Origin: Chiloscyllium plagiosum
Lineage: Eukaryota
Assembly: GCF_004010195.1 (NCBI RefSeq)
Contig: NC_057732.1
Coordinates: forward strand, 34,286,501 to 34,350,500
Length of the DNA: 64,000 nucleotides
Direction of reading: 5' to 3'
How positions within the stretch are numbered: the stretch's first letter is position 1; each line of letters starts with the position of its first letter. A program made the position numbers and the translations under genes. Shown piece by piece: positions 1 through 60,600 of the stretch. The notes below the pieces were generated by a model. The model was not told the DNA's origin and did not search any database. It saw only the letters and a program-made list of their open reading frames with translations.

Positions 1-766
1 GGGGGATGGAGGTGTATAGGGACTGGATGTCCATGGTGAAAATAAGGCATTGGGGGTCGGGGAAATGAAAATCATGGAGGAGGTGAAGGGCGAGGGTGGT
101 GTCCCGAACTTAGGTGGGGAGTTCTTGGACTAAGGGGGACAGGACCGTGTCGAGGTATGCAGAGATGAGTTCGGTGGGGCAGGAGCAGGCTGAGACAATG
201 GGTCAGCTGGGGCAGTCAGGTTTGTGAATTTTGGGCAGGAGGTAGAAACGGGCGGTGTGGGGTTGTGGGACCATGAGGTTGGAGGCGGTGGATGGGGGAT
301 CCCCTGAGGTGATGAGGTTCTGGATGGTCTGGGAGATGATGGTTTGGTGGTGGGAGGAGGGGTCATGGATGGTTTGGTGGTGGGAGCTGGGGTCATGGTC
401 AAGGGGGCAGTAGGAGGAAGTGTCTGCGAGCTGGCGTTTAGCCTCAGCAATGTAAAGATCGGTGCGCCAAACTACCACTGCGCCTCCCTTGTCTGCCGGT
501 TTGATGCTGAGATTGGGGTTGGAGCGAAGGGAGTGGAGGGCTGCATGTTGCGAGGTTGGAGTGGGTGAGAGGGGTGGACAGGTTGAGTCGGTCAATGTTG
601 CGGCGGCAGTTGGCTATGAAGAGTTCGAGGGCTTGGCACACCTTCCTCATTCCTGAAGAAGGGCTTATGCCTGAAACGTCGATTCTCCTGATCCTTGGAT
701 GCTGCCTGGCCTGCTGTGCTTTTCCAGCAACACATCTTTCAGCTCTGATCTCCTCACTTTCTCCTA
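1..766 (-). mobile_element. Penelope-like element: RT fragment (1 to about 640, -) with inverted pLTR piece (about 640-766, +)
   Basis: Translation LRSNPNLSIKPADKGGAVVVW...ARFYLLPKIHKPDCP is typical of PLE RT. Hammerhead-like core at 653-680. Confidence 0.85.
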
Positions 767-1041
767 CAAGCCTCTGGAGCCCTCCGTTTGTGGACTTCCA
801 ATACAGTGCACACATGGAGATTCAAATCAATTCAGCTGGAAACAATGGATGCACCATGGAATTATTTGTCTCACTGGAATGTGTTTTGATACTGAAAAGA
901 TTGGGAATTGCTAAGCGATATCAGGCGGACTGCAGCAGTAAGAGGCAGATCACTATCACATTCACAAAGGCAACGATGGATGGGTAACAACTATTTGTTT
1001 AATATTTATTCATAGGAAAAACCAAAAAGGAGTAATCACGT

Positions 1042-1182
1042 GTATAAGTTCGCTCACTGAGCTGGCAGATTTGTTTTCAGATGTTTCATCACCGTGACTA
1101 GGTAACATCATCAGTGAGAGTCTCTGGTGAAGTGTTGGTGGTATGTCCCGCCTCTCTTATTTATAGGTCTTAGTTTCTTAAA
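1042..1182 (-). mobile_element. PLE pLTR fragment inserted in the CR1
   Basis: Similar to the 3' end of the 5455-5932 element. Hammerhead core 1080-1114 (-). Flanked by a 16-bp duplication at 1026-1041 / 1180-1195 with 2 mismatches. Confidence 0.75.
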
Positions 1183-1329
1183 GGAATAATCATGTTGCTG
1201 GGAATATGCTACAGGCCTCCAGACAGCCAGAGAGGCCTGTAGCATATTCCCAGCAACATGATTATTCCTTTAAGAAACTAAGACCTATAAATAAGAGAGG
1301 CGGGACATACCACCAGCACTTCACCAGAG
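1122..1329. repeat. long inverted repeat, 98-bp arms, 12-nt loop
   Basis: 1122-1219 is the reverse complement of 1232-1329 with one mismatch. Confidence 0.95.
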
Positions 1330-4300: not shown

Positions 4301-4948
4301 TTTGTTTTCTGTTTTATAACCAGTTTGTGATCCATTACACTTCCTGGCTCCCATGTTCTAACATGAATCTCCTTTATGGTATCTTACTGAAGGCCTTTGG
4401 AAAATACAAATAAGTCACCTCTATTATATTACCCTCATCCTATTTTATGTGTTACTTCTTTGAATAATTCCGTTATGCTTATCGAGCAATACCCTTCCTT
4501 TTGAACGGTGTACTAATTTTATTATGTTTTTAATTTCGTAATATTCCTCTGTTAAATCTTTGATAAAGGATTCCATTATCTTTCAATCACTGCCAAGAAT
4601 CTAATCAACTTTATCTTTTTTCTAATCTGTCAGATAAACAATAGCCGCTTTTTGCACTAATTCCCTTTCCTAGTGAAAATTTATGTTCAGGTAATAATGT
4701 GTCTTATGTCTTCCACAACTTATTTTAATCTCTGCTAATGAAATCCATCCAGACTAACCTTTGGCTCACTTCTCAAATTCGTTTACATAGTTTTCTCTGA
4801 CCCCTTCTCCCCCTTCTGCAAATCGTTCCTTCGCATTATGCCCTTGCAGAGTGATTGAGACATTCATGTGCTTTGTCCCATTTCATATGAATTCTGTTTC
4901 TATGTTAATATTAATTATGTGTTTTTTCTCATGCCACATTATCTCTAA

Positions 4949-5167
4949 TTAAAAATCACACAACACCAGGTTATAGTCCAAAAGGTTTAATTGGAAGCAC
5001 ACTAGCTTTCGGAGCGACGCTCCTTCCTCAGGTGATTGTGATCACCTGATGAAGGAGCGATGCTCCGAAAGCTAGTGTGCTTCCAATTAAACCTGTTGGA
5101 CTATAACCTGGTGTTGTGTGATTTTTAACTTTGTACACCCCAGTCCAACACTGGCATCTCCGAATCA
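4949..5167 (+). mobile_element. palindromic PLE-derived short element with hammerhead motif
   Basis: 88-bp inverted arms 4949-5036 / 5041-5128. TSD tatctctaatta at 4940 / 5168. Confidence 0.85.
5043..5077 (+). ncRNA. minimal hammerhead ribozyme motif (AGCT stem III)
   Basis: cac CTGATGA A GGAGC gat GCTCC GAAA GCTA gtg. Confidence 0.7.
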
Positions 5168-5454
5168 TATCTCTAATTAGTTCAGCTGGCTACAGCATTT
5201 TCTTCCTTGTCTCTCTTTCTAAATGTGTGAAAGCCTGCAATATTTAACCACCAGTCCTATTTTTTATTAAACCATGGTTCAGTTTTCCCTGCACTTATAC
5301 ATCCTTACTGTAGATTATTGCCTCCAGCTGAGCCTTTCTTTGTGTGTTCTTTTCATTGTGATGTGTACAGTTACGTTTTCAAACTGCAAACTGTCTACTC
5401 TGTTAGAAGTAAATCATTTGGTCATTGGCTTAAAGTGATGAACAACAATAAACA

Positions 5455-5932
5455 CAAAAAAAAACACCATTTCGACTGGGACAACACATCTATCCTGGGA
5501 CAGGCTAAGCAAAGAAATGCCAGAGAAATCCAAGAGGCCTGGCACTCCAACCACAATGCCATTAACAAACACATAGATCTAGATCTGGGACAACACATCT
5601 ATCCTGGGACAGGCTAAGCAAAGAAATGCCAGAGAAATCCGAGAGGCCTGGCACTCCAACCACAACGCCATTAACAAACACATAGATCTAGATGCCATCT
5701 ATCAACCCCTCAGAAAACAAACAGGAAATGACATCACCACGAACCCCAGGAACCCATCCAGGAGAAAGATATAAATAGAAAGCAGGAGACAACAGCTTCG
5801 CTTCACTTGGAGGTCGCCACTGATGATGTTACCTAGCCAGGTAATGAAACGTCTGGATATCAAACCTACAGTTCAGCCAGCAAACCTACACCCTAAACCT
5901 CAACCTAAGCTCCAAAACCTTCACAAAACTTG
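5455..5932 (+). mobile_element. Penelope-like element 3' end (GIY-YIG C-terminus plus pLTR)
   Basis: HHFDWDNTSILGQAKQRNAREIQEAWHSNHNAINKHIDL. TSD caataaaca at 5446 / 5933. Internal 109-bp tandem duplication. Confidence 0.85.
5817..5856 (+). ncRNA. minimal hammerhead ribozyme motif (ACGT stem III)
   Basis: cca CTGATGA T GTTACC tagcca GGTAAT GAAA CGTC tgg. Confidence 0.72.
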
Positions 5933-6551: not shown

Positions 6552-9500
6552 GTGAGTCTCTGGAGAAAACTGGGTTTTGAAACTTATAGTACAAATGCTG
6601 TGGTTGGGAGAGACAGAAAAACAGAGAGGACAAGTTAGAGACAGGGCAAGATAAAAAGAAAATGTGACAGATAGAGGGAGTAGGGCAAGGGAGAGAGATA
6701 GGAAGAGAGAAATAATCAGACAAGAAGAAATAGTAATTGAGAAAGCCCTAGATCTGTATGCAATACAGGCAGAGCCTTGGGTCCATCAGTCTCCTCTCTC
6801 TCTTGCTCTGCTATCATTCTAAATTTATTTGTCTCTCAGTTCTCTTGCTCCATCGCTGTTCTCCTTGTCTATCATCTCTTGTTCTCTCCTTCATCTCGAT
6901 AGCTCTCTTTATATTTCTCTCTCTCTCACTATGCCTCTCTTTTTCTGTTGCTTTCGTTCTGTATCTCATTCTCCACCTCTTGTTCTGTCACTCTCTCACT
7001 GTTGTTCGTATGCTTCCTGTATCTCTCAATCACTGCCACTCCATTTCTCACATCCTTTCCCTTTTGTTAATTTCAAAGCTCTTTTCTTTGCCATTTCTAA
7101 TTTTTCTGCCCATTTAAGCAACTTCAGCCTCCTGCCAAGAATTGTGTGAGGTCGGAATCAAGTAAGACCTGGAACAAGTGAAGATTGGGTAGGAATTAGT
7201 TTAGCCTGGAATCAGGTTAGATTAACAAAGGAATAAGCAATAATTGGGCAGAAATCCAGTGGAGCTGTGAACTAGACAAGAATCAGGCAGAGGATTAACT
7301 CCCTGACATCCCTCAGTTATTATTATATGACTAGGGAACATGGCACAAGTTTTGACAAAAACTGTTCCTAAAACAATTTAATAATTGATTCCCCTTTTGG
7401 GTATTTCTTGGTCTGTTTCTTTTATTGTAATTATTTTCAACCTCTGTGCTACTTGATCCTCAGATATGGGTTTACCCTTCAAATAATGGCTCGCTCCATG
7501 TTGTTCCAGACTGTGGGAGATAATGAACTCCCCCATGTTACAGGGCTCAGACTGTCAGAAAGACCAGCGTATTTAAAGAGGGGCTCCAACCTGTATCTCA
7601 AATTGATGTAAGAATCTGCAGCCACTAATGAAATGAGTTCTCCCCATGGTCCAAGCCATTAATTTTCCACCAAAAACAAAACACTTAAAATGTTATCTGG
7701 GTCACTTGTCTGGCTACTGTTTGCCAGATCCTGTTGCCACATTAACAAGTGAAATTCTTTGAATGTTAGCTGTTTTCTGAGAGATATGATCTGGTGTGAG
7801 ATAAATGAATCTTTCATTTGTATTCACTAACCAGTTGTTCATTGCAGAATTTAAAACTGACTGAGCCCTCAGGGCCGGTCCATGGCCTCACCGCAGCTTG
7901 GACCAACACTAAGAATCTGGCCACTTACAGGAACTTCAAGGTGAGTCCCAACATCATGGCAGATGGCACCAGGACAGAGAACAGAACTAGTGAGTGACAG
8001 GGAAGGGGAGGAGGGGGTGAGAGTTGGGGGCTGTTTGCTTCTGTGTGGGAATGGTACTGAGAGACCAGGGAGTCAATGGTATCAGGGTTTGGAGAAATGG
8101 GGCGGTGGACATAGTACCAGAAATCAGGTTTTGCAGGTCAGTATCTGGGTAAAAACAATGGCTGTAGATGCTGGAAACCAGATTCTGGATTAGTGGTGCT
8201 GGAAAAGCACAGCAGTTCCGGCAGCATCAAGGAGCAGTAAAATTGACGTTTCGAGCAAAAGCCCTTCATCAGGAATACAGGCAGAGCGCCTGAAAAGTGG
8301 AGAGAAAGTAGCATAGAGTACAATAGGTGAGTGGAGGAGGGGATGAAGGTGATAGGTTGGGGGCGAGGGGAAGGTGGAGTGGATAGGTGGAAAAGAAGAT
8401 AGGCAGGTAGGACAAGTCATGGGGACAGTGCTGAGCTGGAAGTTTGGAACTGGGGTGAGGTGGGGAAAGGGGAAATGAGGAAACTGTTGAAGTCCACATT
8501 GATGCCCAGGGGTTGAAGTGTTCCGAGGCGGAAGATGAGGCGATTTTACTGCTCCTTGGATGCTGCCTAAACTGTTGTGCTTTTCCAGCACCTCTCTAAT
8601 CCAGATCAATATCTAGGGCAATAGATTGTTACCGGGGAGAGTGTAGAAATACTGGGTAGGGGGCTGTTTGAATACTGGATGGGGGGGATCAAGAGTGTAG
8701 GAATATTGGGTAGAGGTATAGGAGAGAGGAGGGGAAGGAGGAGAGACAAATACCTGGGATTGATAAAGAGGCTGGAGGGATTGGAACAATACCTATGGGA
8801 AAAGAGCATTAATGGGAAGGGGGAGATGGCAATAATGGGAGGGGGAGGGGCAGTAACAGGAGGGGAGGGTCAGTAATGGGAGGGGGATATTGCAGTGTTG
8901 AGCAGGGATCAGTCATGGAGGGGGTGAGTGCAGTGTTGGGTAGGGCTCAGTCAGGGAGGGGAGATTGCAATGTTGGATTGGGAGCAGACCGGGAGAGGGT
9001 GAGTGCAGTGTTGGATAGGTTTCCTTCACGGAGGGGATGATTGCAGTGTTGGATTGGGATCAGTCAGGGAGGGGGAGATCGCAGTGTTGGTTAGGGCTCA
9101 GTCAGGGAGGGGGTAAGTGCAGTGTNNNNNNNNNNNNNNNNNNNNNNNNNNNNNNNNNNNNNNNNNNNNNNNNNNNNNNNNNNNNNNNNNNNNNNNNNNG
9201 GGAAGGGTCAGGAATGGGAGGGGGCATTAATGGGGAGGGGGGAGGCAGTAATGGGGAGGGGGGAGGCAGCACGAGCTGGAGCGTGGAGGAGTGATTAGAC
9301 GTTGCAGTGGTGGTGAGATGGGGTCAGATCCCAGCTTCCCTTCTGCAGGACGTATCTTCATGTGGAGAGGATTAAATGGCAAGTGTTTCCTCTTTGCCTT
9401 TGTTCAGTCTGGATTGCTCCAGGAACGGGTACTGAACACGTATCGGCTGATGCACACTAACCAGACAGTGGAATTTGTTACCAAGAAGGTGAGTGGTTCA

Positions 9501-12500
9501 TCAAGACCATCGAGATCCTGGGATCTCAGTCAATGTCATTTCAAATACACCTTAGAATTAGACAGCTCTGAAAGAAATCATTTAACACATGCATGTGCCA
9601 ACTCTTTAATAGAGCTATTCAATTAGTCCCGCTCCATGCTCTTTCCCCATTCCTGTAATTGTTTTTATTCAATTCGCTTTTGAAAATTACAATTAAATTG
9701 CTTCCACCACTTTTTCAAGTTGCGCATTCAACTTTATGCCTAAAATATACTTCCTGCTAAATTGCCCTTCCTTTAATTTTTGCTGTGTGGATCTCCAGCT
9801 CTGTGCATGGCTGTGACTTTCTGAACTGGAAGTCAATGGGCCCACATTCTTACTGACATACATTGACCCTCCAAGCAGCTGCGCAGACCTACGGCTTATA
9901 GCGAACATTGGTTATGTAGCCTCTGGTACTTTCACCAATCATTTCCTCTGGCTACTGACCCATTTGTTATTGGAAATAATTTATCCTCACAAACTACCAA
10001 AATTCTTCATGTCCTTGAATGCCTCTTTAAGTTCTCTTGGCAATCTTCTTTCTGGTAGGAGAACCAATGAGACAAGCACACAATTTCCATCATCCTTGCA
10101 GTAATGCTGAGTGATGAACCTGAAAAAATTCATAAATAGTTTTCAACCAAAATGTATCACCTAATAATTCTCTGAATTAAGATTAATGACTATGTGTGAT
10201 TTCATCAGTTAATTTAATCAGTTTATGACTGGTACCTCTGGTATTCTCTTCTTTGGTGTTTGCCACATTTGAATTCCATGCCATTTGCAAACTTAAGTTG
10301 TGCTTTGCATGTTCAAGGACAGGTCATTAATATAGATCAAAAAGACCATTAGTCCTAATATTTACCACTGTACACTTCACTCCAATCTCTCTGCTTTCTG
10401 TCCTTTAGACAATTTTGCACCCACAGCCACTGACCCTTGAATTACGTGGGCTTTAATTTTGCTAACAAGTCTATTTTGTGATGATTTTAACTGCATATGT
10501 CAACCCTCCCTCCTGTCATCATAAAATTTTGACCAAGTTAATAAATACACTTCGCCTTTTTCAAATCAATGCTGGCTTTCACTTTTTAGCCCATACTCTT
10601 CCAAGTGCCAATTAATTTTGTCCCAGATTATTGTCTCTAAATGTTTCCCCAAAATATTAATGTTATGTAGATGGTGTGCATTTACTGGGTTTTATCTCAC
10701 AGCCCTTTTTTGAACAAAGGCGTAGTGTTTTCAATTCTCCAGCCCTTTGGCACCAAGGCCTTAATGAAGAAAGTGTATTCAGAGCCTCTGGAATTTGTAA
10801 CCTTGGTCTCTTCAGTAATCAATTCAGATTAGATGACTTTGGCACTTTGAGTACAGCCAACTTTTTACACTTTTTCATACCATGAATCCAATATTGCTAT
10901 TTCCTTCCTCTTTGCTGCTGCACTGTCAATATTCTCTTAGGTGAAGATTGATCTAAAATAATTATTTACTGCATTTTCCTCCACAAAAAGATTTCCTTTT
11001 CAATCCCGAGTCAATCCCCACATTTATCCTTCCTTAGAATACCCTTTCACTACGTTTGTAAGACTTTGGAATTCCCTTCAATGTAACTCACTAATGTTTT
11101 CCTCACTTTGTCTCTCATTTCAGTTTTCAATTGCCCACTATATTTCGCTTCTCTACTGAATTATTATACATATAGGCAACAATTATTATAATTTATTATT
11201 TAATTTCGATCTCTCCACCCATAGTAATCCAGTGAGATCTAGCATTGGATGCCTTTCTTTTCTGCTTCATGTGAATGTGTTCAAACTTCCACCTTTTTGA
11301 AGTCTTCCCCTTTGCAATTTTTACCAGCTTTGATTCTAACGCACCTCAGCCAAATTCTTTATTATTTGAAACTTTTTGTCTTCATTCTTATTTTGATTCT
11401 TGATAAACCCTGATAGACAGGTGAACAATGGTTGGAAGGGGTGCTTAACTCAATGGCATTTGAGCTATTGAAGAACCAGCCAGATGGGATTGTGGGTGGT
11501 GTATCGGATCTATATGGGGGTTTGAGTGACTGAATAATGATGTTTGAATAATCAATTGAGCTGGTGTGTTGAGTTGTTTTTTGTTGCGTCTCATATTTTA
11601 GATTGCACGATGGGGCTCATGTTCACAGGCTCAGATGACAGTGATGGAAGCTCTTCAAGCACTTGATCAGATAGTGGATGAATCTGATCCTGATGTTGAT
11701 TTTCCAAATTCTTTCCATGCCTACCAAACAGCAGAAGAAATTCGGAAGGTCTATCCTGACCTGGGTAAACTATTTAACTCTTCTGAAGGAGAGGCTGCTG
11801 GGAATGAATGGAGAGTACAGACACATAACATACACAGGCACATCGCATACACAAATATGTAGAGAGAGGTAAGCACAAAAAAAAGGACTCATAGTCAAAC
11901 ACACATTGAAACATAAGTAGACAAACTCAGGAAGATACATACAGACAGTTAGAAACAAGATTCGGAGATGCCAGTGTTGGACTGGGGTGTACAAAGTTAA
12001 AAATCACACAACACCAGGTTATAGTCCAACAGGTTTAATTGGAAGCACGCTAGCTAATTTTGCTCCGAAAGCTAGTGTGCTTCCAATTAAACCTGTTGGA
12101 CTATAACCTGGTGTTGTGTGATTTTTAACGTTAGAAACAAGGACACAGACAGAAGTAAACACATGTAGGTGTGAAAGTGTGGTTCTGTAAAGTTTGGAGC
12201 ATCACATGACATAATGTTTGAATTGGCACTCCTTCAGCGCTTTTACAGTGCTGTCCTATGATGGTGCAGTTCTCAGCAGGTGCTGTTGGCTTAGTATGCC
12301 CTTAGTAGTCTCTCGAAAAATGTATCACTCCTTCCATTAAACTCCTCCTGCAGTGCTCCCTCATCACTGCCCACATCAAATCAAAGTACCTTCTCTGGTA
12401 TTGTCTCACAAAGTGCAACGCTCCCTCAATACTACCTGACAATGCAGCACAATGGTGGTGTGGATTGATGAAGTTTAGGGAATTATGAGATGCTGCAATT

Positions 12501-44400: not shown

Positions 44401-47400
44401 TGACGGCAGAAGTGTTGGAAATGGGTTGGACATGACTAAGGAATAGTAGTAGTGAATATTCAGTTAAGGAAAAAGGTGAACATTTGAGGTCCACCCTGTG
44501 AAAGGTGGCATCACAGAACAAATGTGATGGACAACTTGGATAATGGAATGAAGTCCTTACAGGAAACAGGGGTGAGGATATATAGTCAAGAAAAATGTGG
44601 GGTTCGGTGGGTTTGTAATGGATATTGATGGCCAACCTATCTTGAAGATGGAAACTGCGATGTCAAGGAGGGAACAAAGGAGTCACAAATGTATTCGTGG
44701 TGCTGCTTCCCTCTTTTGTCTGGAATTGGAAACATTTATCAATTTTGCTTCCAATTTCAGCTTGTCCAGTTCTGCCTCTTCTCTTCCATTCCTCAACATT
44801 TCTGGCCATTTACTTGTATTTCCTTGCCTTGTTAGGCTTCTCCAAATGCTTACCTCTCACCTGTCCACACGAATTCCACTTTCCACTTTTCTACCCACCT
44901 GATCAGTTCATCAATATGTTTCTGCAATCCACAGCTTTCGACTTGACTACTAACAACATGATTAGTCTTTGTATCAATGTAAATTTTTTACTCTAAATCA
45001 GTGATTTTTAACACAAAAGACAAGTAACAACAATAAACCCTGTCGGACACAGTTGGAAAAGGACTTCCAGTTACAAAAACAACATGGATAATCATCCTTT
45101 GTTTTCTGCCCTAAGTTAATTTTGGATCCAACTTTTTATTTGAATCTCATGGTTTTCACTTTTGTGGCCACTTTGCATTGTCAAAAACCTTCCCAAAATT
45201 AATCAGTTGTGCCACTTCCTCAAAAGAAAATTCAGTAAAGTTAGATAGATTTATCATTTCCTCAACACATCTCTGCTGACTGACTTAAATAAATGTGTCT
45301 TTTAAATGACAATTTATATTGTGCCTCAGAGATTTCCCTAATAAATTACCCAGCACTGAGTTTAGGATGACCTGCCTATAAGGACTTGATCAATTCTTTT
45401 CTCCCTTTTTAAACAATGGTGGAACCTTGGCACTCCTACGTTTATAACCAGAGATTAGAATTATTATGGCGAGATCCACCATAACTTTTTCAATTGCTTC
45501 TCTGAACAGCCTAAATGTACCTAATTTAGGCTCAGTGATTTACTGACTTTCAAAGATTACACACCTCTTGATATTTCCTCTCTATGTTTATTCTATTCAA
45601 TATTTTATATTCTGTAACTACTCAATCACTTCCCTTTTTGTGGAGGCGAATGCAAATTATTAATTAAGAACCATGCCCTTGACTTCAGCCTCTACACATT
45701 TTACACCTTTTTAGTCTCTAAACGGCCCTACTCTTTTGGCTATCTTTCTGACCAAAAATTGTTTTTTTTCAGCAATACTTTATATATTGACAAACTAGCC
45801 GTTAAAGTTCCTTCTGTTTGCTTTTCAAATGTCCTGTCTAGGTTTGCCTCTGACCTTGCAACAATTCTCCCAGTTACTGTGTTCTTGGGCTCTCCGTTTA
45901 ACATAAGCTTTCTTTTCTGCACGATTTCTGCCTTGCATGCTGTTTGTCATTTAGGACAGCCTGTACTTGTGAATTCTACCTCTGATTGGCACGGTGGCAC
46001 AGTGGTTAGCACTGCTGCCTCACAGCGCCAGAGACCCGGATTCAATTCCAGCCCCGGGCAATTGTCTGTGTGGAGTTTGCACATTCTCCCAGTGTCTGCG
46101 TGGGTTTCCTCCGGGTGCTCCGGTTTCCCTCCCACAGTCCAAAGATAATAGACAATAGGTGCAGGAGTAGGCCATTCAGCCCTTCTAGCCTGCACCGCCA
46201 TTCAATATGATCATGGCTGATCATTCCTAATTCCTCTTCCTGCCTTATCTCCATAACCATTGATTCCACTATCTTTGAGAGCTCTATCCAACTCTTTCTT
46301 AAATGAATCCAGAGACTGGGCCTCCACTGCCCTCTGGGGCAGAGCATTCCACACAGCCACCACTCTCTGGATGAAGACGTTTCTCCTCATCTCTGTCCTA
46401 AATGGTCTACCCCGTATTTTTAAGCTGTGTCCTCTGGTTCGGCACTCACCCATCAGTGGAAACATGTTTCCTGCTGCCACAGTGTCCAATCCTTTAATAA
46501 TCTTATATGTCTCAATCAGATCCCATCTCAATCTTCTAAACTCAAGGGTATACAAGCCCAGTCACTCCAGTCTTTCAGTGTAAGGTAATCCCACCATTCC
46601 AGGAATTGACCTCGTGAACCTACAATCACTTAGCTCTGTCTATCATTTGCTGTTTATACCATCTTGCATGCAAGTAGTTCTGTTTAGTGGCTTCACCAGG
46701 TTGACACCTCATTTTTAGCTATGCCTGGTGCTGCTCCTGGCATGCACTCCTAAGTCTCCATTGAACCAGGGTTGATCCCCTGGCTTGATGCTAATTGTTG
46801 AGTGGGGGATATGTCAGGCCATGAGGTTACAGACTGTGCTGGAGGACAATTCTGCTACTGTTGATGGCCCACAGCGCCTCATGGATGCCCAGTCTTGAGT
46901 TGCTAGATTGTTTCCAAGTCTGTCCCATTTAGCACGGTGATAGAGCCATAAAACATGATGGAGGGTATTCTCAATGTGAAGGTGGGAATTTGTCTTCACA
47001 AGGACTGTGCGGTGCTCATTTTTTACCGATACCATTATGGACAGATGTTCTACAGCTGGCAGATTATTAAGGATGAGGTCAAATATGTTTTTTCCTCTTG
47101 TTGCTTCCCTCACCACCACTGCAGACCAACTCTAGCAGTTATACCCTTTGCAACCTGACCAGCTCGATCAGTAGTGCTGTTGCTGAGCCACTCTTGGTGG
47201 TGGTGATTGAAACGTCCATCGAGAGTACATTTTGCACCTTTTCCACCCTCAATGCTTCCTCCGAGTGTTGTTCAACATGGTGGAGTACTGATGCATCAGC
47301 TGATGGAGGACGGTACATGGTAACCAGTAAGAGGTTTCCTTGCCCATGATTAACCTGAAGCCATGAAACTTCCAAGGGGGCCGGAGTCAATGTCAAGGAC

Positions 47401-50400: not shown

Positions 50401-52738
50401 ACCTGAAGATCAACATGTCTCAGGCAAAGGGAGAGGTTGAGAAGCTGGTACCTTCACAGTAACCTTGCTTGTACGCAAATGAATCCACACTGGTGGGGTC
50501 ACACTGCATTGTAAGCCAGCCATCCAGCCAACTAAGCAAACCAACCCATTCTTCCTAAACCGCGACACCAGAAAATTGTCACAGTAATCCAACTGAGGCC
50601 AAACTAGTGCCTTATGCAAGTTCAATATAATCTCAAGTAAAAGTAAAATATTGATGCTGGAAATCTGAAACAAAAACAAAAGGGCTGAAGAAATAGAGTT
50701 AATACTTTCTAATCCATGAATCATATTGGACTCCAAATGTTTCTCTCTCCACAGATATGAATTTCACATTCTGACTTGTTTCAATATAATCTTTGCGCTC
50801 TTGCATTCTACGTCCCTATTAATAGCCTTTATCATCCCTACAATTGGCCAGTGACAAAAAAAAATTCCAAGAAAAGGCAAAGGACAACATGAGTACAGAA
50901 AATCACTGCTTTTCAGATCTGGCTGCTTGTTAATTGGCTGACGTGTTTCCTTTACCACAATGGTTATATTTTGAAAGTGCTTTGGGATATCTTGTCGATA
51001 GGAGCGGGACAAAGCCCTAGCTGACAGCCTAATCACAGACCCATACTGATCTCTCCCAATTACAGCTACTGTCTGATCAGAATGGAGTCCAAAGGATGCT
51101 ATGATTCAGAATCTTAACCTTGCAACTGATGAGAAGTACAACATTCTGACTGCTGATCCATTGTTCCCACTGGCAGCTGATTCAGGAAAACTACGCAATC
51201 AAATGAAAACTTCAAATTCTTAAGCACACCAGTTAAAAATTAGAGATAGAAATGATGTTGGGGTAAGGTTTCACACTCAAAAATCTTACAGCTGTCAGAG
51301 ATTGGAAATAGAAGTTGAAAGTGCTGAAGAAAATCAGCATGTCTGACATCATTTGTAGACAGTACGCTCTTCTCTCTCTATAGACACTGCCAGATCTGGT
51401 TTTCTTAGAGTCATGGCGATGTACAGCATGGAAACAGACACTTCAGTCCAACTCATCTATGCGGACCAGATATCCTAAATTAATTGAGTGCCATTTGCCA
51501 GCATTTGGCCTGTATCTCTCTAAACCCTTCTTGTCCATGTACTAGATACCTTTTAAATGTTGTAATTGTACCAGTTTCCAGCACTTCCTCTGGCAGCTCA
51601 TTTCATATACTCACCACCCTCTGCAAGAAAAAGTTGTCCTTTTGGACCCTTTTAAATCTTTCCCCCCTCACCTTAAACCTGTGCTAAATAATTTTGAACT
51701 TATCCAGTCTGGGGAAAATACCTTGGGTATGCATTCTATCCATGCCCCTCATGATTTTATAAACCCCTATAAGGTCAACCCTCAGCCTCTAACACTCCAG
51801 GGAAAGTAGACCCAGCCTCTCCCTCTTGCTCAAACCCTGGCAACATCCTTGTAAATCTTTTCTGAACCCTTTCAACACTTCTTGAGCAGTTTGTTTTTAT
51901 TTTGAAAGCTTGGGCTTCTCTTGAAAAGAGACGGAATGGAAGAATAAGGGGGAAGGCGGTGGGAGAGTGCACTCATGAGGTTCATGGACATGGGAAGAAA
52001 ATTGGCAGTGGGGGCTTCTTACTTAAGACAAACATTCATGGGATGCTGGTTTTACTAGCCTTTATTGCCCATTCCTGGTTGCCCTGGAGAAGATGGTCCT
52101 TTTTGGACCTCTGTAACGAATAGTGCACATAATGGAATGGCTTCAGTTGAATTCACTGCAACTGTCATTTCCAAAACATTATTCCCTGTGTACATACTGC
52201 ACATTTGGAGGTTCGCACCAACGTAGCCATAAGAGCCTGAAGAATAGTCACACCGGACTCGAAACGTTATCTCTATTCCTCTCCTCACATATGCTACCAG
52301 ACCCGAGTTTCTCCAGCATTCTGTGTTTGTTTTAGATGTTCAGTATCTGCAGTGTTTGCTGTGAACCACCAGACCAAAGTCTAAACTGTACCAGCTCATA
52401 AACACAGGGGACTACCCGGTCAACATGACGGCACCAACGCTTTCCAATCTCACAGCCAACATCGCCACATTCTTGATGTTGTTTCGGAGCTAAACCATTT
52501 ATTGCACTTCACTCGGTTTCCTTCCACTAACCACACCTCTGCCTTCTCCACGAGGCTCCTTCACCCACCCACCCGCCAACAAAGTACACCCTTCACCGAG
52601 ACAGACCTTTTAAAACCCACAGAATGACGGGTCACCACTGTTACCTGGGATTTGTACATAAAGTGAGGTGAATGCACACAAGTAAATAGCCACCATGCCC
52701 CAGAGGAAGGCTCCCCGCGCCAACCCGATCTCCCCCAT
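23084..52738 (-). CDS. LMF2: lipase maturation factor 2, whole gene, 14 coding exons, 2136 nt / 711 aa
   Basis: Minus-strand exons 52738-52645, 42909-42656, 38626-38598, 38376-38180, 35880-35702, 34922-34784, 34579-34439, 32317-32212, 31481-31385, 29045-28863, 28488-28320, 28044-27933, 26967-26862, 23413-23084 splice in frame. Motifs: [72 protein letters not shown]. Confidence 0.96.
24515..26800 (-). mobile_element. CR1 LINE ORF2 fragments, LMF2 intron 13
   Basis: [39 protein letters not shown]. Confidence 0.9.
26862..26967 (-). CDS. LMF2: LMF2 exon 13 ([23 protein letters not shown]...HGFK)
   Basis: AG/GTGAGG boundaries, 106 nt. Confidence 0.95.
27571..27723. mobile_element. fold-back PLE-derived short element, LMF2 intron 12
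   Basis: Inverted arms 27571-27591 / 27670-27690. 15-bp TSD ccagtac(c/a)atgtgaa at 27556 / 27724. Confidence 0.8.
27630..27670 (-). ncRNA. minimal hammerhead ribozyme motif, sense to the LMF2 pre-mRNA
   Basis: Minus strand reads aagct CTGATGA C GAGTC atcta GACTC GAAA CGTT ggctt. Confidence 0.75.
27933..28044 (-). CDS. LMF2: LMF2 exon 12 ([12 protein letters not shown]...YKYWFT)
   Basis: AG/GTAAGT boundaries, 112 nt. Confidence 0.95.
28320..28488 (-). CDS. LMF2: LMF2 exon 11 ([10 protein letters not shown]...LLQGKRN)
   Basis: AG/GTGAGT boundaries, 169 nt. Confidence 0.96.
28863..29045 (-). CDS. LMF2: LMF2 exon 10 (VPYTFIE...[11 protein letters not shown]...GQKWK)
   Basis: AG/GTAGGA boundaries, 183 nt. 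Confidence 0.96.
29403..29930 (-). mobile_element. CR1 LINE 3' fragment with internal deletion
   Basis: Near-colinear with 14320-15101. Confidence 0.85.
30930..31320 (+). mobile_element. old DeuSINE-like (SacSINE1/AmnSINE1-like) SINE remnant
   Basis: Recalled resemblance to the Deu-domain consensus. Related remnants at about 7590-7810, 31845-32000 and 50860-51000. Confidence 0.5.
31385..31481 (-). CDS. LMF2: LMF2 exon 9 ([12 protein letters not shown]...FAVSL)
   Basis: AG/GTGAGT boundaries, 97 nt. Confidence 0.93.
32212..32317 (-). CDS. LMF2: LMF2 exon 8 ([11 protein letters not shown]...SSLLR)
   Basis: AG/GTGTGT boundaries, 106 nt. Confidence 0.94.
34439..34579 (-). CDS. LMF2: LMF2 exon 7 (LGWLRTLQ...ELAVY...IESKT)
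   Basis: AG/GTATAA boundaries, 141 nt, phase consistent with neighbours. Confidence 0.92.
34784..34922 (-). CDS. LMF2: LMF2 exon 6 ([17 protein letters not shown]...)
   Basis: AG/GTGAGT boundaries, 139 nt. Confidence 0.95.
35702..35880 (-). CDS. LMF2: LMF2 exon 5 ([12 protein letters not shown]...FAFYTQ)
   Basis: AG/GTAAGC boundaries, 179 nt. Confidence 0.96.
36390..36718 (+). mobile_element. Penelope-like RT fragment
   Basis: [23 protein letters not shown]...FLHYIDDC...LKFTW...PFLDL. Ends at the gap 36719-37457. Confidence 0.9.
37458..37713. mobile_element. inverted pair of PLE pLTRs forming a palindrome with 123-bp arms
   Basis: 37458-37580 is the reverse complement of 37591-37713 with 3 mismatches. 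Hammerhead core at 37588-37615. Confidence 0.9.
38180..38376 (-). CDS. LMF2: LMF2 exon 4 ([10 protein letters not shown]...WWGLT)
   Basis: AG/GTGAGT boundaries, 197 nt. Confidence 0.96.
38421..38520. repeat. 44-bp tandem repeat, about 2.3 copies, in LMF2 intron 3
   Basis: ctttacacactgtccactg(t/c)ttagcccttgcatactgttcacac repeated. Confidence 0.93.
38598..38626 (-). CDS. LMF2: LMF2 exon 3, 29 nt ([10 protein letters not shown])
   Basis: AG/GTGAGT boundaries, highly conserved LMF motif. Confidence 0.95.
39040..42485 (+). mobile_element. long degenerate CR1 LINE (ORF1 end, EN, RT, 3' tail)
   Basis: LCLNA (EN start), [12 protein letters not shown], gggaattatagaacagtcagtctg (NYRPVSL-like), CR1 3' tail. 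Confidence 0.88.
42656..42909 (-). CDS. LMF2: LMF2 exon 2 ([10 protein letters not shown]...YLSIYQ)
   Basis: AG/GT boundaries, 254 nt. Confidence 0.95.
43104..44640 (-). mobile_element. older Penelope-like element 3' part, interrupted by a SINE
   Basis: [19 protein letters not shown]. pLTR with a decayed hammerhead at about 43200-43231. Confidence 0.7.
43490..43797 (-). mobile_element. tRNA-derived SINE (HE1-like)
   Basis: Full copy with (taatc)n tail, nested in the PLE. Confidence 0.87.
45988..46145 (+). mobile_element. tRNA-derived SINE, 5' half
   Basis: A and B boxes, truncated by a CR1 fragment. Confidence 0.85.
46146..46625 (-). mobile_element. young CR1 3' fragment
   Basis: [19 protein letters not shown]...RTRGHSLKI. 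Confidence 0.9.
46640..47535 (-). mobile_element. LINE fragment of a second family (APE endonuclease region)
   Basis: EVSWLQV...[24 protein letters not shown]. Confidence 0.75.
47575..47858 (+). mobile_element. CR1 ORF1 fragment (esterase-type)
   Basis: LQNRFSIL...VIGDSIVRG motif. Ends at the gap 47859-48358. Confidence 0.8.
48359..49470 (-). mobile_element. CR1 ORF2 endonuclease region, little decayed
   Basis: [42 protein letters not shown], with one frameshift. Confidence 0.92.
49478..49615 (+). mobile_element. SINE 3' half
   Basis: gatgtgcaggttaggtgaattggcc...(taatc)n. Confidence 0.8.
50634..50779. mobile_element. decayed PLE pLTR insertion
   Basis: gatgctggaaatctgaaacaaaaac motif. 13-bp TSD ttcaatataatct at 50621 / 50780. 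Confidence 0.6.
51405..51878 (-). mobile_element. CR1 3' fragment
   Basis: [14 protein letters not shown], same family as 14320. Confidence 0.87.
52237..52362 (+). mobile_element. PLE pLTR fragment with hammerhead-like core
   Basis: CTGAAGA A tAGTC acaccg GACTc GAAA CGTT at 52237-52268. Confidence 0.65.
52645..52738 (-). CDS. LMF2: LMF2 coding exon 1 ([14 protein letters not shown]...YVQIP)
   Basis: ATG at 52738, donor G|GTAAC, 94 nt, similar to the LMF2 N-terminus FASLYTQIPG. Confidence 0.9.
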
Positions 52739-53350: not shown

Positions 53351-53640
53351 TGAGTCTGAGCTTGTCAGTGTCAGTTCGAATCTCCTCTGCATTTTTTTCT
53401 GTTAATTATAATTTAATTTCTTCAGATTTCTGTGATTGTATTGATGTTCCTTTTAGTCTCTTTTGTTCTGGTTCAGTCACTTACTACTTTATTCCCTACA
53501 GTGTCTGATTGAACTATTCGTGTTTACTGCAGTTACTGGTTTACTTTATGGTGGCAACAGTCAGAGCCAATTTGTCTTTAATAATGCAATATAAGAGGAA
53601 AAATAAGCGATATGTCAGAATAGAATACAGTCATTTATTG

Positions 53641-53845
53641 AAAAATGTGTTGCTGGAAAAGCGCAGCAGGTCAGGCAGCATCCAAGGAGCAGGAGAATCG
53701 ACATTTCAGGAATTCCTGAAGAAGGGCTTATGCCCGAAACGTCGATTCTCCTGCTCCTTGGATGCTGCCTGACCTGCTGCGCTTTTCCAGCAACACATTT
53801 TTCAGCTCTGATCTCCAGCATCTGCCGTCCTCACTTTCTCCTACT
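53641..53845 (+). mobile_element. fold-back PLE-derived short element with intact hammerhead core (53716-53743)
   Basis: Arms about 53642-53707 / 53736-53801. TSD gtcatttattg at 53630 / 53846. Core CTGAAGA A GGGC ttat GCCC GAAA CGTC. Confidence 0.88.
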
Positions 53846-54890: not shown

Positions 54891-54894
54891 CTTG

Positions 54895-55280: not shown

Positions 55281-56150
55281 AGAACAGTATGACTCCATTA
55301 GTCAAACGGTGTAAGTGTAGATAGGAGCAGCTGCAAGGGGTGTTGAATGGCCCACTGCTCTTAATTTGAATGTCTGTGGAACAGCTCTTCAAGGTCAGAA
55401 TTCAGAACAGTCAGGAGGACTGATATCTCGCCAGAAACCAGGTTATTTAATTCTATCGTATAACCTTCATTGTTATTGTATTATTGGTGTCTGAATAATG
55501 TACTTGGATGACAGACTTTAACTTCAATAATGAGAATTTATTTAAGTGTTTAAAAGCTTCCCAATAGTCTTTTTGTATGCTATATAAACCATAAATGCAT
55601 TGGCAGTGGCAACAAATTACTGATTAATGTACTCCAGGAAAGGGGAAGGAACTGAATTGCATATTCCCTATGTATTCTTTGCATTTCTTCTGTTAGGATC
55701 TCTCCCTGGGGTAGTATTGGCTAGATGAAACAGTGTGAGATCTGTTTTAAATGTTTGAAATAACCTTATTTTTAACCTTTCTTTCTCAAAGATGTCTCTT
55801 CTCTCCTGGCACATTTGTTCACTTCTCTTGCTGCAGTAACGATTTCTAGGTTTGATGATTAGTAGTTTCTTGGCTTGTTCCATTATGCTTTGATTATGTA
55901 TTGTTTTTAAACAAACATCTTACCTCAAATAGGAGATGTTTGAAAAGTTCTTTTGAAGGTTTTTGCAAGCAGATTGTTTACTGTCTATTGCTGATGTCCT
56001 GGGGTTTGATTTGATTTATTATAGTCATGTACTTGGATACAGTGAAAAATATTGTTTTATGTACTACACAGGCAAATCGTACCTTTTATATAAGTACCTC
56101 AAGGTAATAGAACAGAATGCATAATATAGTGTTACAGCTACAGAAAAGCT

Positions 56151-56559
56151 TTAGGGTGTAGGTTTGCTCGCTGAGATGTAGGTTTGATATCCAGACATTT
56201 CATTACCTGGTTAGGTAACATCATCAGTGGCGACCTCCAAGTGAAGCGAAGCTGTTGTCTCCTGCTTTCTATTTATATCTTTCTCCTGGATGTCTGGGGT
56301 TTGTGGTGATGTCATTTCTTGTTCGTTTTCTGTGGGGTTGATAGATGGCATCGAGATCTATGTGTTTATTTATGGCATTGTGGTTGGAGTGCCAGGCCTC
56401 TAGGAATTCTCTGGCATGCCTTTGCTTAGCCTGTCCCAGGATAGATGTGTTGTCCCAGTCGAAATGGTGGCTTTTTTCATCTGTGTGTAGGGCTACGAGA
56501 GAGAGAGAGAGAATCGTGTCTTTTTGTGGCTAGCTGGTGTTCGTGTATCCTGGTGGCTA
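56151..56559 (-). mobile_element. Penelope-like element 3' end (family of 5455)
   Basis: High identity to the reverse complement of 5463-5900. Hammerhead at 56191-56230 (-). TSD acagaaaagct at 56140 / 56560. Confidence 0.88.
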
Positions 56560-57577
56560 ACAGAAAAGCTGTAGAGAAAGATCACCTTTAATATATGAAA
56601 GGTCCATTCAAAAGTCTGATAATGAATGATATCAGTTCATCCATAAGAACATGACAAAAAATGAGCAGGAATAGGCAACGATGCTGAAGTCTAGAAAATG
56701 AGAGATTGTGACTTGTCATTTTGCTTGTAGTTTGTGATCTTATCTCTGAACCTGTGCCCTGAAGATCCTGAAGGTGAGTCCAGTAACATCCATCCTTGAT
56801 ACTTGCTGAGACACACTTACCCAGTGATGTTTGGGAAAGGATGTCACATTCAGCTTATAGCAAACCTCCAGGAGTCAATAATGGAAATTGGGACCAAGTG
56901 CCCTGACTCTAAACCGTGGCAGAGTTTTGACTCTACACGTACTGGCAACCTGTACTTGGATACTGACCGACTACCACCAACTATCTGGAAGTTCCACCTT
57001 CATGATTCACCTAGGAAAGAAGTAGGAATTGCTTATGAAGCATCCCTGGATTTCAGAGTTTTCTTACGAAATCATGATTTGGATTAAAGTACTATTTGTG
57101 TAGAGGATAAACGCCAATAGAATTAACTGGATTAGATGGACCTGTTTGTGTTGTAATTCTGTATGGTTTATAGTTTGTGCTTTTCTAAGCACCTTCCAGT
57201 CAGGTACCTACCTACCTATACTCCTGTAGCAAATCTTTTTCATTACATTTTAATATTTGATATTACCAGTCCTGTTAGTTGCTTTTCTCATACACTGAAA
57301 GTTTTATCTTTTTCATTTTGTCAGGAAAGTGACAAACGAAAAGGAAATTGCTATTTTATATAGATGGAGATTCTTCTGTAAAATGAATTGTTACGTTCAA
57401 ATAGCTGTATCCCCCAACCCTGTGACACTATTGCAGATTCTCCATATTTCTAGTGTTCTGATGATGAAATATAATTGACCTGAAATATTAACTGTTTCTC
57501 TCCCACAGATGACTGCCTGATCTGCTGAGTACTTCTGTTTTAACTCCTTGCCTCAAGGGTTCTGTGCTTGGTCAAAG

Positions 57578-57685
57578 ATGGAGGATGTTGAGTCACGATT
57601 CACACATCTCCTTCAGCCCATTAGAGAGTTGACAAAGAACTGGGAGATTGATGTGGCATCTCAGCTGGGGGAATATCTAGAAGAG
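57578..57685 (+). CDS. NCAPH2: NCAPH2 first coding exon
   Basis: AAGATGG start context, GAG|GTGAC donor, 108 coding nt. Confidence 0.95.
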
Positions 57686-60600
57686 GTGACAACTTTGTAT
57701 GCTAAATTATTTGGTCTCTTGTGACATGATTAATTTCTCTTTGCTTATCTCCCTCTCACTAATTCTTTCTGGTTTGACCCAAAAAACCTGTGGTTGTAAG
57801 AGTTGTAAGGGGGAAGCAAAGATGCTTAATTGGGAATTGGAAAAAAGTGAAATGACCGGGCAAAAGTATGGCAGATGGTATGCAATGTGGGCAAATCTGA
57901 GAATGTGTCTGGGAAGAATAAAAATAGAGTAATTCTTGAACAATGGGAGGTTAGGAAGTGTTGGACCTCAAGTTATGTACTCTTGTTCAAATTAGCATGC
58001 ATGTACAATAAGCAATTAAGGTAAATGGTATGTTGACCTTTACTTCAAAATAATCTAAGTATAGAAGTACATGTCTTATTGAAATTATGTAGCACCTTGG
58101 TGAGACCACACTTGGAGTATTGTGTACAGTTTTGGTCTCCGGACCCAAACAAGGATGTACTTGCCATAAAGGAAATGCAGCAAAGCTTCACCACTAATTC
58201 TTAAATTGGAGGGATTGTCCACTGAGAAGAGATTAAATAAACTGAGCCTGTATTCTGTGGAGTGTTAAGGAATGATAGCGATTTATGAACATTATTCATC
58301 ACAGATATAAAATCGCAAATCCAACATTTCAAAATGTTCCCATTCTTAATTATTTTACCTCTTAAGTGATGAGGCATTTTTATCACAGACTTGTGGATTC
58401 AAAATACACTTTACCTCCCAGAGTTTATGTCTGTCAAACTATTTGACATATTCTTCAACAAATAACTCTGGAGGGAAAGTGTCATTGGTGTCTGTAGAAA
58501 TGTTACTCAAAAGGTGTACAGTCAATTTATTTAATTAAAAGATGTTTGAAATATGTAAACAATGATTTTATTTTATTTATTTTGTTGCAAATCTTGTTTT
58601 GAACTCCTGGCAATTTCAGTTAGTGATCAGCCAACTTCTTAGCTGTTAATTTTTGCTGCATTTATCTACGTTCTAATAATTTAAACATCTTTATCTGGAA
58701 TAGACCCCTGGAGTATCCCACTTCCAACTTTTGTTTGATAGAGCAGGCTCTAGGGATAAACAAAGTTCCAACTTTTGAGTTTTGTTCAGTTAACTGATTC
58801 CTGTTCCCTTTTTGTCAATCAACTTTCTATCCTTTTGGCTGCAGTTACATTGTGAAACCTTTGCGACAATCTCTTTCTCTCGGCGGGGCTCTTGTAATAT
58901 ATCGGCAGGGTCCATACCCCTGGTCCAGAAGACCCAAGCTTCGGCCACACGCAGCATATTTGACCAAGTTGATTAGAAAATATCTCTGTCTGTCTTTTCC
59001 AGTTGGACCAGATCTGCATTTCCTTCGATGATGGGAAGACAACAATGAACTTTGCAGAAGCTGCACTTTTGATCCAAGGCTCGGCATGTATTTACAGCAG
59101 GAAGGTCTGTTTTTTGCCATCCTCTGCTGAATGGGATGAAGGTCTGGTGTGGGCTGAGTGTACACGTGGCTGGGCCTGGTAGAGAAAAAGGGCAAATGGG
59201 TCTGGGGGATAATTGGGACAGGGTGATTGGTAGAAATTTGGTTTGAGGTGAAAAGCCTGGAAGCTGATCACTGCTCGTTTTAGATCCTTAATTATTCCAC
59301 TAAGATGACGAAACGTGCTCAAGAGGAAAAGAAAATCTTTCAAAATGTATGTAGTTACTGCAGAGTTTGGAAAGATATCAGACCTGGTTGTATGTGGATG
59401 TTTGTCTGATAACAGCTCAGGAATTTTCCAGACTGCTGCCAACTGACTTGTGGAATTGATGAGATTGAATAGTCTGAGGATGTTTTTCCTTTCTACACAG
59501 GTGGAATATCTGCATTCTCTGGTGTTCCAGGCGCTGGACCTGATCTCCAACAAGAAGTAAAGAATAAAACAAAACAACAAACTGTGAATCGGAAACAAAA
59601 ACAGAAATGGCTGGAAAACTCAGTAGATTTGGTAGCATCTGTGGAAATAAAGCAGAGTTAAGATTTTGGGTTCTGAAGAAGGGTCACTAACCTGAAATGT
59701 TAACTCTGCTTTTCTTCATAGGTGCTGCCAGACCTGTAGAATTTTGCCTGCAATTTCTGTTTTTGTAAAGAATCCTTGTAATAACTAAGCAAACACTGAC
59801 TGTGCTGAATGCCTTTAGAAACTTTATGCCAAGTACCCTGTATATATAAGATTACTACACTCAGTATTGCATGGTCTATTATATAATGTATACAACAAGA
59901 TTATGCTACTTGCCCGTGTGGGGCAGCATGGTAGCTTGGTGGTTAGCATTGCTGCCTCACAACATCAGGGACCCGGATTCGATTCTAGCCTCGGGCGACT
60001 GTCTGTGTAGAGTTTGCACATTCTCCCCGTGTCTGCGTGAGTTTCCGCCAGGTGCTCCGGTTTCCTCCCACAGTCCAGAGATGTGCAGGTTAGGTGAATT
60101 TGCCATGCTAAATTCCCCATAGTGTTCAGGGATGTGTAGATTAGGGGCAGTAGTTAGGGGAAATGTAGATTACTAGGGTAGGGGAATGGGTTTGGGTGGG
60201 ATACTCTTCAGAGGATCTGTGTGGACTTGATGGACCAAATGGTCTGTTTCCACACTGTAGGGATTCTATCATTCTAAAGTATTACACCTAGTGGAATATT
60301 GTTTGATAATAAACAAGCTAATTATACAGATGCCATACTCTGTTTTGTTGCAGGATTATCCAGCTAAGCAGTAAGTTACTGCAGGAGCATCGCACCCAGT
60401 GATGTACTAAATTATTACAGAAATGTTAAAATTCATAATAAAATCATTTCACACTAACTGAAGTACTGCACACGTTAAATAGATTGTGTGCTATAATGTG
60501 TATTACATCAGTACCTCTGTGGAACTGTAGCAACCAGTAACAGTCTGTGCTTTGGGGTGGCTCACTGGTTAGTACTGCTGCCTCACAGCACCAGAGAGCC

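What the first reader, a model, noticed from the sequence alone, without database searches (positions are those of the whole stretch)
653..59701. Dispersed minimal hammerhead-ribozyme motifs in at least four Penelope-derived families, with covarying helices
Seen in sequence: the motif CTGA(T/A)GA-N-[stem II]-GAAA-NNTH recurs at 653(+), 1080(-), 5043(+), 5817(+), 8245(-), 27630(-), 37588(+), 52237(+), 53716(+), 56191(-) and 59673(+), with decayed traces near 35915, 42500, 43200 and 57458. Stem II differs between families yet pairs: GGGC/GCCC, GGAGC/GCTCC, GTTACC/GGTAAT, GAGTC/GACTC. Stem I pairs in three families: cac/gtg, cca/tgg, aagct/ggctt. All have one extra base between A9 and G10.1. Stem III is reduced to a loopless 4-nt palindrome, ACGT or AGCT. 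Established: PLE pLTRs carry minimal hammerheads thought to cleave as dimers. Inference: several parallel ribozyme-bearing retroelement families have littered this genome, at about one recognisable motif per 5 kb here.
Basis: partly seen in the sequence, partly recalled or inferred. Interest (0 to 1): 0.7.

Follow-up and report, generated by a model that had tools for sequence, protein, structure and literature searches.

The report
Shark Penelope stubs carrying minimal hammerheads
These motifs are the already described minimal hammerhead (a predicted self-cutting RNA) at the ends of several Penelope-like jumping-gene families in a likely shark genome, and many short copies begin at the motif's first letters rather than at its predicted cut, so they are likely copies of the uncut front end of the element's RNA.

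Summary
A strict descriptor finds 11 motifs in the window (mean 0.18 in 100 shuffles) and 105 in 117 evenly spaced 10-kb loci, about 3x10^5 genome-wide by extrapolation. Each named family lies at the 3' end of a Penelope-like (PLE) reading frame: three Neptune-type lineages and one Poseidon-type. Stems covary across families, and another family carries a U3-A8 core swap in 771 exact copies. Cervera and de la Pena (2014) already describe these motif features, so this is a new member of a known kind.

Added here:
- Family A 5' ends pile up at the motif's first bases (71 of 169), about 30 nt after a TATA-like box, not at the cut (6 of 169; 5.7 expected).
- Family B poly(A) reads end 28-32 nt after the cut.
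- Family C's frame starts inside the motif.

The stubs are therefore likely run-off cDNAs of uncleaved RNA, not independent ribozyme elements. Cleavage and the start site are untested. This scan noted the 5' pile-up before, on other pieces of this genome and in other genomes.

The parts
631..753 (+). Family A (Neptune-type) pLTR stub; hammerhead core 653-676, stem II GGGC/GCCT; 5' end 22 nt before C3
1045..1329 (-). Family C (Poseidon-type, older subfamily) pLTR stub; core 1114-1084; inverted repeat 1122-1329
4949..5168 (.). Family B head-to-head insertion: hammerheads at 5031-5007(-) and 5046-5070(+), 5' ends 9 and 5 nt before C3; 12-bp direct repeat (likely target duplication) at 4940-4951 and 5168-5179
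5457..5927 (+). Family C 3' end: GIY-YIG C-terminal remnant 5471-5782 (partly duplicated), hammerhead 5820-5849, tail
8148..8605 (-). Family A 3' end: GIY-YIG C-terminal remnant 8545-8456, hammerhead 8272-8249, short inverted piece 8542-8605
11953..12132 (.).
27571..27669 (-). Family D (older Neptune-type) stub; hammerhead 27665-27639; 5' end 4 nt before C3
35914..35994 (+). Decayed D/E-type stub; core letters at 35916-35938, stem II lost
   Evidence: 74% identity, E 6e-8
36474..37714 (+). Family A insertion: RT remnant 36474-36716, assembly gap 36719-37457, head-to-head arms 37458-37580(-) and 37583-37714(+); hammerhead 37588-37611, 5' end 5 nt before C3
42500..42616 (+). Decayed family B stub
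43131..44644 (-). Old Neptune-type copy: decayed RT-to-endonuclease frame 44644-43859, interrupted by another repeat at 43491-43801, decayed D/E hammerhead near 43230
52237..52353 (+). Decayed D/E-type stub; core 52237-52264 with G10.1 mutated
53639..53842 (.). Family A head-to-head insertion; hammerhead 53716-53739(+), 5' end 4 nt before C3; fully intact motif
56147..56560 (-). Family C 3' end: GIY-YIG remnant 56560-56287, hammerhead 56227-56198
57458..57485 (+). Core-like letters without stem II; no family alignment found; unassigned
59582..59766 (.). Family E (older) head-to-head insertion; hammerhead 59673-59697(+)

Best explanation
These are minimal type I hammerhead motifs in the pseudo-LTRs of several Penelope-like retroelement families, and the dispersed copies are short, truncated element ends that are likely run-off cDNAs of the uncleaved 5' end of the element's RNA. 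Shown: PLE linkage, stem covariation, two clustered 3' end sites, 5' ends clustered at the motif's first bases in families A and B, a TATA-like box about 30 nt upstream, and poly(A) reads ending just after the family B motif. Inferred: transcription starts at the motif's 5' edge; the element's endonuclease nicks AT-rich DNA; reverse transcription starts internally about 85 or 125 nt after C3 and runs off the RNA's 5' end; two such cDNAs often join head to head. The ribozyme is likely selected only in the master copy. There it would cut slowly, as a dimer or with help from the element's protein, and separate the cap (in family C the start codon too) or the poly(A) tail from the RNA.
For: PLE linkage. 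Family A: motif downstream of the RT thumb in 16 of 29 loci reported; RVT_1 E 1.7e-4 for L198 and GIY-YIG E 8.8e-5 for L201; longer homologues carry RVT_1, PF26215 and sometimes GIY-YIG. B: GIY-YIG frames upstream in L177 and L179. C: RT-to-GIY-YIG frames ending in the motif. D: tblastn hits upstream in 3 of 12 loci. Covariation: 34 of 36 stem cells pair across six families, reached by 2 of 720 partner permutations; stem I alone, not in the descriptor, 16 of 18, also 2 of 720. U3-A8 family: 771 exact copies, control 0. 5' ends: family A 71 of 169 at -6..+1 from C3 (27 of 78 among unique-flank copies); B 19 of 36 at -10..0, mode -8. At the cut: A 6 of 169 (5.7 expected), B 0 of 36. None of 23 unique-flank peak copies shared upstream sequence. 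TATA-like boxes sit at -34/-36 (A; 36 of 52 long copies), -40 (B), -35 (D, F). RNA reads from many copies have loose ends at the same A (154 reads). 3' ends are bimodal: A +85-95 and +125, B +85 and +120, like the PAc tail (PMC11167929). Family C's frame opens at the ATG made of A9, the extra U and G10.1 in 4 of the 29 loci with the N-terminal marker.
Against: No start site was mapped: the only raw RNA run that laid gave no pile of read starts. Family C shows no pile-up (11 of 15 copies extend more than 40 nt upstream, none at the predicted start). The cap-derived extra G is not significant in family A (8 of 20 versus 32 of 109, p 0.24); it appears only in B (4 of 5 versus 4 of 27, p 0.009). 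The peak window was chosen after seeing the data, alignment ends are uncertain by a few bases, and head-to-head arms count twice in the larger totals. In D. virilis Penelope the start lies 46 nt before a 75-nt intron (PMC2377424) whose end maps to helix I (PMC4209133), so the layout is not universal. Minimum-energy folds gave the hammerhead-like monomer fold clearly only for A3 and the stem III dimer only for A2 and A3, of 7 representatives. No cleavage was measured.
Confidence: 0.62

Rival explanations
1. The 5' pile-up comes from reverse transcriptase stalling or template switching at the folded or protein-bound hammerhead, or from endonuclease trimming or microhomology at ATT, not from a transcript start.
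For: PAc endonuclease prefers ATT near its own ORF-pLTR junction (PMC11167929), and family A ends begin at ATTC or TTC. Many inverted junctions use short palindromes. The extra-G test is negative in A.
Against: A second ATT just after the cut in family A collects few ends (9 at 0..+3). The family B mode (-8) moves with its TATA box, and 3 of those 5 copies have no ATT-like start. 27 of 78 unique-flank copies also pile up, without an inverted partner. A hairpin would be expected to stop the enzyme on its 3' side (general knowledge).
Confidence: 0.25
2. The stubs are a non-autonomous SINE- or retrozyme-like element that amplifies on its own through ribozyme cleavage and RNA circles.
For: Very high copy number. 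A circle model is proposed in PMC4209133, and PLE-derived tandem retrozymes are reported for one chondrichthyan genome (bioRxiv 10.64898/2026.07.22.740005).
Against: Ends are not enriched at the cut. Among 105 strict hits, the 7 same-strand same-family pairs were 1.5-6.7 kb apart and none formed a short tandem unit. Stub lengths vary continuously up to copies with RT frames. Short copies lack the TATA-like box.
Confidence: 0.08
3. The motif is a conserved RNA structure for protein binding or promoter function that no longer cleaves at a useful rate.
For: Low in vitro rates (PMC4209133). PAc insertion does not need cleavage, and no reads ended at the cut (PMC11167929). Family B RNA depth is flat across the predicted cut (1220 versus 1199).
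Against: The U3-A8 double change keeps exactly the pair needed for catalysis. U16.1 in 101 of 105 and H17 in 103 of 105 hits were not asked for by the descriptor. PAc's motif does cleave when protein is added (PMC11167929). A poly(A) library would lose cleaved products.
Confidence: 0.15

Closest known systems
[quoted passage not shown]
   Same: No helix III, palindromic 15.2-16.2, one extra base between 9 and 10.1, G10.1-C11.1, many covarying families per genome, mostly solo copies, opposite-strand pairs, and a U3-A8 variant.
   Different: The parts read name coelacanth (about 4,000) and Xenopus (about 9,000) but no shark; the estimate here is about 3x10^5. They do not report where the solo copies' ends lie. 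Supplements were not read and may list cartilaginous fishes.
PAc, Poseidon element of the green anole, Frangieh et al. 2024 (PMC11167929; parts 1-2 of 4 read)
   Same: Frame starts at stem II about 26 nt before the cut (family C: 28 nt from its ATG), two internal RT start sites making a 30-40 nt tail, AT-rich targets, uncleaved RNA as the template.
   Different: PAc was assayed biochemically; nothing was assayed here. The parts read do not link solo copies to a transcript start.
Neptune and Penelope/Poseidon clades of endonuclease-positive PLEs (PMC8557442, passages; PMC3846280, passages)
   Same: C-terminal GIY-YIG, CX2-5CxxC linker present in A and absent in C, 5' truncation, inverted 5' copies, tail; TATA plus initiator-like motif noted in a rotifer pLTR.
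   Different: Clade names here rest on linker motifs and peptide similarity, not on a tree with named references. Family B's linker was seen only in decayed form.
Non-LTR retrozymes (bioRxiv 10.64898/2026.07.22.740005; part 1 of 5 and passages)
   Same: Non-coding, PLE-related, type I hammerhead; reported in one chondrichthyan genome.
   Different: Defined there by tandem units; the copies here are solo or head-to-head.

Membership tests
PLE minimal hammerhead | CUGANGA and GAAA core with stem II closed by G10.1-C11.1 | tested here: met
   88 of 105 strict hits close with G-C and 15 with G-U; the closing pair was not fixed by the descriptor
PLE minimal hammerhead | One extra base between A9 and 10.1 | tested here: met
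   Both 0 and 1 extra base were allowed in the window scan; all 14 hits had 1
PLE minimal hammerhead | No helix III; palindromic 15.2-16.2, then U16.1 and H17 | tested here: met
   73 of 105 Watson-Crick at 15.2-16.2, 101 U16.1, 103 H17, 71 all three
PLE minimal hammerhead | Short stem I, covarying between families | tested here: met
   16 of 18 cells pair; 2 of 720 permutations reach it. In A1/A2 it is only 2 bp plus a U-U mismatch and 1 bp
PLE minimal hammerhead | Located in the pLTR of a PLE | tested here: met
   the U3-A8 family F was not linked to a frame
PLE minimal hammerhead | Self-cleavage as dimer or with protein help | not testable with these tools
   Folding is uninformative on catalysis; RNA reads show no end at the cut
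Endonuclease-positive PLE | Single frame, RT then C-terminal GIY-YIG | tested here: met
   L201, L154, L208, L209, L214, L216; no complete intact frame was recovered
Endonuclease-positive PLE | 5' truncation, inverted 5' copy and 30-40 nt optional tail | tested here: met
   94 of 198 A and 25 of 47 B copies have an inverted upstream arm; bimodal 3' ends
Neptune clade (A, B, D/E) | CX2-5CxxC linker before GIY-YIG | tested here: inconclusive
   Clear in A; decayed in B; D/E assigned only by 28-50% peptide identity to A
Penelope/Poseidon clade (C) | No linker zinc finger | tested here: met
   Frames of L208, L209, L214, L216
Neptune / Poseidon clades | Placement in an RT tree with named references | not tested
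Non-LTR retrozyme | Tandem repeats with a hammerhead in each unit | tested here: not met
   No tandem unit holds two motifs in the window or among 105 hits in 117 loci; arrays elsewhere in the genome were not searched

The most novel reading that the evidence does not exclude
The pLTR works like a retroviral U3-R-U5. A TATA promoter starts the RNA at the hammerhead's first bases, a poly(A) site about 65 nt later closes an R-like repeat holding the ribozyme, and target-primed reverse transcription starts downstream of it. The resulting strong-stop-like cDNA either integrates as a stub or jumps through R to the RNA's 3' end to copy the full element. The roughly 10^5 stubs would be failed jumps, and the hammerhead a switch that destroys R.
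Probability: 0.2. Interest if true: 0.78.

Novelty: new member of a known kind. Interest (0 to 1): 0.38.

Why it matters
The motif itself is ordinary for Penelope-like elements. What could matter is that the role of these hammerheads and the origin of the many solo copies are stated as unclear in the papers read (PMC8557442, PMC4209133). A genome with about 3x10^5 copies records where cDNAs start and stop. Here that record points to the transcript's likely 5' end, not the cut, and family B adds a used poly(A) site just past the cut. These give exact positions to test by cap mapping and in an in vitro PLE assay.

Tried and rejected
Rfam, E<=10: no hammerhead family matched; the microRNA hits are head-to-head stubs and other palindromes, all below gathering score.

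Pfam on 11 window frames: nothing at cut-off; short remnants score weakly.

The three longest family C 'frames' fetched were assembly gaps read as open, as were many family A ones. No intact full-length element was recovered.

Spike of 5' ends at the cut: not found (A 6 of 169, B 0 of 36, C 0 of 15). Five A ends lay exactly at the first base after the cut, against 0-3 at the six neighbouring positions, so a small contribution is not excluded.

Unrepresented subfamilies as the cause of the pile-up: rejected, 0 of 23 unique-flank copies shared upstream sequence.

Extra G from the cap: inconclusive.

Expression: no indexed holder is on record as RNA. X22 laid 0 reads. X21 reads on family A lie on both strands and show no start pile.

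A direct genome-wide count of the general motif was not obtained; the total is extrapolated from 1.135 Mb, all on chromosome-scale contigs.

Lunse et al. 2016 (dimer cleavage) was not held; it is known here only through the review PMC6765202 (passages).

Literature searches that showed no paper on shark PLE hammerheads or on strong-stop-like PLE stubs: (listings only). The library lacks most subscription papers, and Dfam/Repbase could not be checked.
Full report
1. Observation. All listed motifs are in the window. A strict descriptor gives 11 hits against mean 0.18 in 100 shuffles. The stem III palindrome is intact in 8 of 12 copies and CpG-decayed in 4. Three of the four decayed traces align to families; 57458 does not. 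Rfam has no matching model.

2. Setting. The window lies in G000 contig C23 of a 3.56-Gb assembly. The best named protein relatives of the elements are from carpet sharks, 86% identical in Chiloscyllium punctatum, so the host is likely a shark of that group. In the first 77 evenly spaced 10-kb loci there were 69 hits against 0-5 in five shuffled sets. In all 117 loci (1,135,019 non-N bases) there were 105 hits: 74 A, 19 B, 7 D/E, 3 C, 2 other. That is 1 per 10.8 kb, about 3.3x10^5 by extrapolation. 55 of 105 keep the closing G-C, palindrome, UH and at least 2 bp of stem I.

3. What carries them. Family C follows a GIY-YIG C-terminus at 5471-5782 and 56287-56560. Genome copies have RT-to-GIY-YIG frames without a linker zinc finger that stop in loop II. 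Family A follows RT, a CX4CxxC linker and GIY-YIG. Family B follows a more distant GIY-YIG frame, 27-38% identical to A. Family D has A-like frames upstream in 3 of 12 loci, and the old copy at 43131-44644 links the D/E type to such a frame in the window. By the linker rule in PMC8557442 (passages), A, B and D/E are Neptune-type and C is Poseidon-type; no tree was built. Inverted upstream arms occur in 94 of 198 A and 25 of 47 B copies, and 3' ends fall at two sites 35-40 nt apart. Both are known PLE traits.

4. Is the fold selected? Across six family representatives, core identity is 0.89-1.0 while stems and flanks are 0.27-0.37 (G10.1/C11.1 0.73). 34 of 36 stem cells pair; 2 of 720 permutations reach that. 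Stem I, not part of the descriptor, pairs in 16 of 18 cells. Representatives were single copies picked by hand, and families D, E and F are related, so these are not independent events. A family absent from the window has U3-A8: 1001 exact matches to the pattern with A8, 771 to the form with U3, controls 0. The same swap is reported in Schistosoma.

5. Where copies end. Copies were collected by alignment from loci not fetched for that family (1.49-1.68 Mb; identity at least 85% for A and B, 80% for C and D). For A, 213 copies were found, 15 dropped for gaps or edges, 27 extend more than 40 nt upstream, and 2 more were set aside. Of the remaining 169, 71 begin at -6..+1 from C3 and 6 within 1 nt of the cut (5.7 expected). 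Among unique-flank copies the figure is 27 of 78. For B, 11 of 47 are long; 19 of the other 36 begin at -10..0, mode -8, none at the cut. C shows no pile-up (11 of 15 long). D has 4 of 10 within -4..+2. A TATA-like box lies 30-32 nt before these modes in A and B, and at -35 in D and F. That it acts as a promoter is inferred; initiator-like readings of the start are from recall. The extra-G test is negative in A and positive in a very small B sample.

6. RNA. One single-cell poly(A) run of an organism with the same species label as the best DNA holders was laid (about 2% read). On family A, reads lie on both strands, and 154 have loose ends at the A at -4, which echoes the genomic pile-up. On family B, 3146 reads laid and are strongly one-stranded over the motif. 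484 and 403 carry poly(A) behind positions 1687 and 1691 of L177, 11-15 nt after ATTAAA and 28-32 nt after the predicted cut. The DNA there is not A-rich, and depth is flat across the cut. These may be host transcripts using a B copy's signal. No such signal is evident at the same place in A1, A2 or C (print-out). Both RT start sites of B lie beyond this poly(A) site.

7. Family C frame. In 4 of the 29 loci carrying the N-terminal marker, a hammerhead lies 526-533 nt upstream. The frame opened by the ATG at A9, extra U, G10.1 runs into the N-terminal domain in L238 and does so with frameshifts in L233, L243 and L244. This parallels PAc.

8. Mechanism. Shown: family structure, covariation, end positions, the poly(A) site. 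Inferred: start of transcription at the motif, internal priming after a nick, run-off at the RNA's 5' end, head-to-head joining. From the literature: slow dimer cleavage and protein-assisted cleavage that insertion does not need. Rivals are stalling or trimming at the motif, an autonomous retrozyme, and a non-cutting structure.

9. Comparison and verdict. The finding is real, correctly read, and a new member of a known kind. Five literature searches showed no paper on shark copies or on the run-off reading, within a limited library; supplements were not read. Unreviewed notes of this scan report the same pile-up in this and other genomes, seen after my; none matched the poly(A)/transfer wording. 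Interest 0.38.

Noticed in passing
L075:4825(+), L111:1410(-); G000 genome-wide: Family F hammerhead with a compensatory U3-A8 core, 4-bp stem I and TATA box at -35; 771 exact copies. Its reading frame was not looked for.
   Followed up: partly
L177:1671-1691: Family B pLTR holds a poly(A) signal that is used in RNA: 887 of 3146 laid reads end in poly(A) there. B insertions may donate 3' ends to host transcripts.
   Followed up: partly
window 12002-12122, 5006-5071, 53668-53775, 1176-1275, 59640-59719: Head-to-head PLE insertions form long perfect hairpins that score weakly as microRNA precursors in Rfam; a possible source of small RNAs or of false microRNA annotations.
   Followed up: no
window 4940-4951/5168-5179, about 11948-11959/12130-12141, about 53630-53640/53846-53856: Direct repeats of 11-12 bp, AT-rich, flank three head-to-head insertions; likely target-site duplications.
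   Followed up: partly
window 13813-14114, 15917-16243, 43491-43801, 45989-46146, 59921-60269, 60556-60874: A roughly 300-bp dispersed repeat family unrelated to the hammerheads, likely a SINE; one copy interrupts the old Neptune-type element.
   Followed up: no
window 14317-14811, 29403-29790, 51403-51875, 54915-55280: Another dispersed repeat family, 70-84% identical between copies; not identified.
   Followed up: no
window 5476-5693 and 5852-6194: Tandem duplications of 109 and 171 bp at both edges of the family C copy, possibly assembly artefacts or junction duplications.
   Followed up: no
L173, L179 upstream of the family B motif: Family B has a long CA-rich low-complexity tract between its endonuclease frame and the pLTR.
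   Followed up: no
proteins P0061-P0176: After carpet sharks, many named relatives of the family C frame are from flatworms (tapeworms and flukes, 40-55% identity). No tree was built, so nothing is concluded about transfer.
   Followed up: no
L004:2215-2995: Retrovirus-like protease/RT frames lie beside a family C stub; observed only.
   Followed up: no
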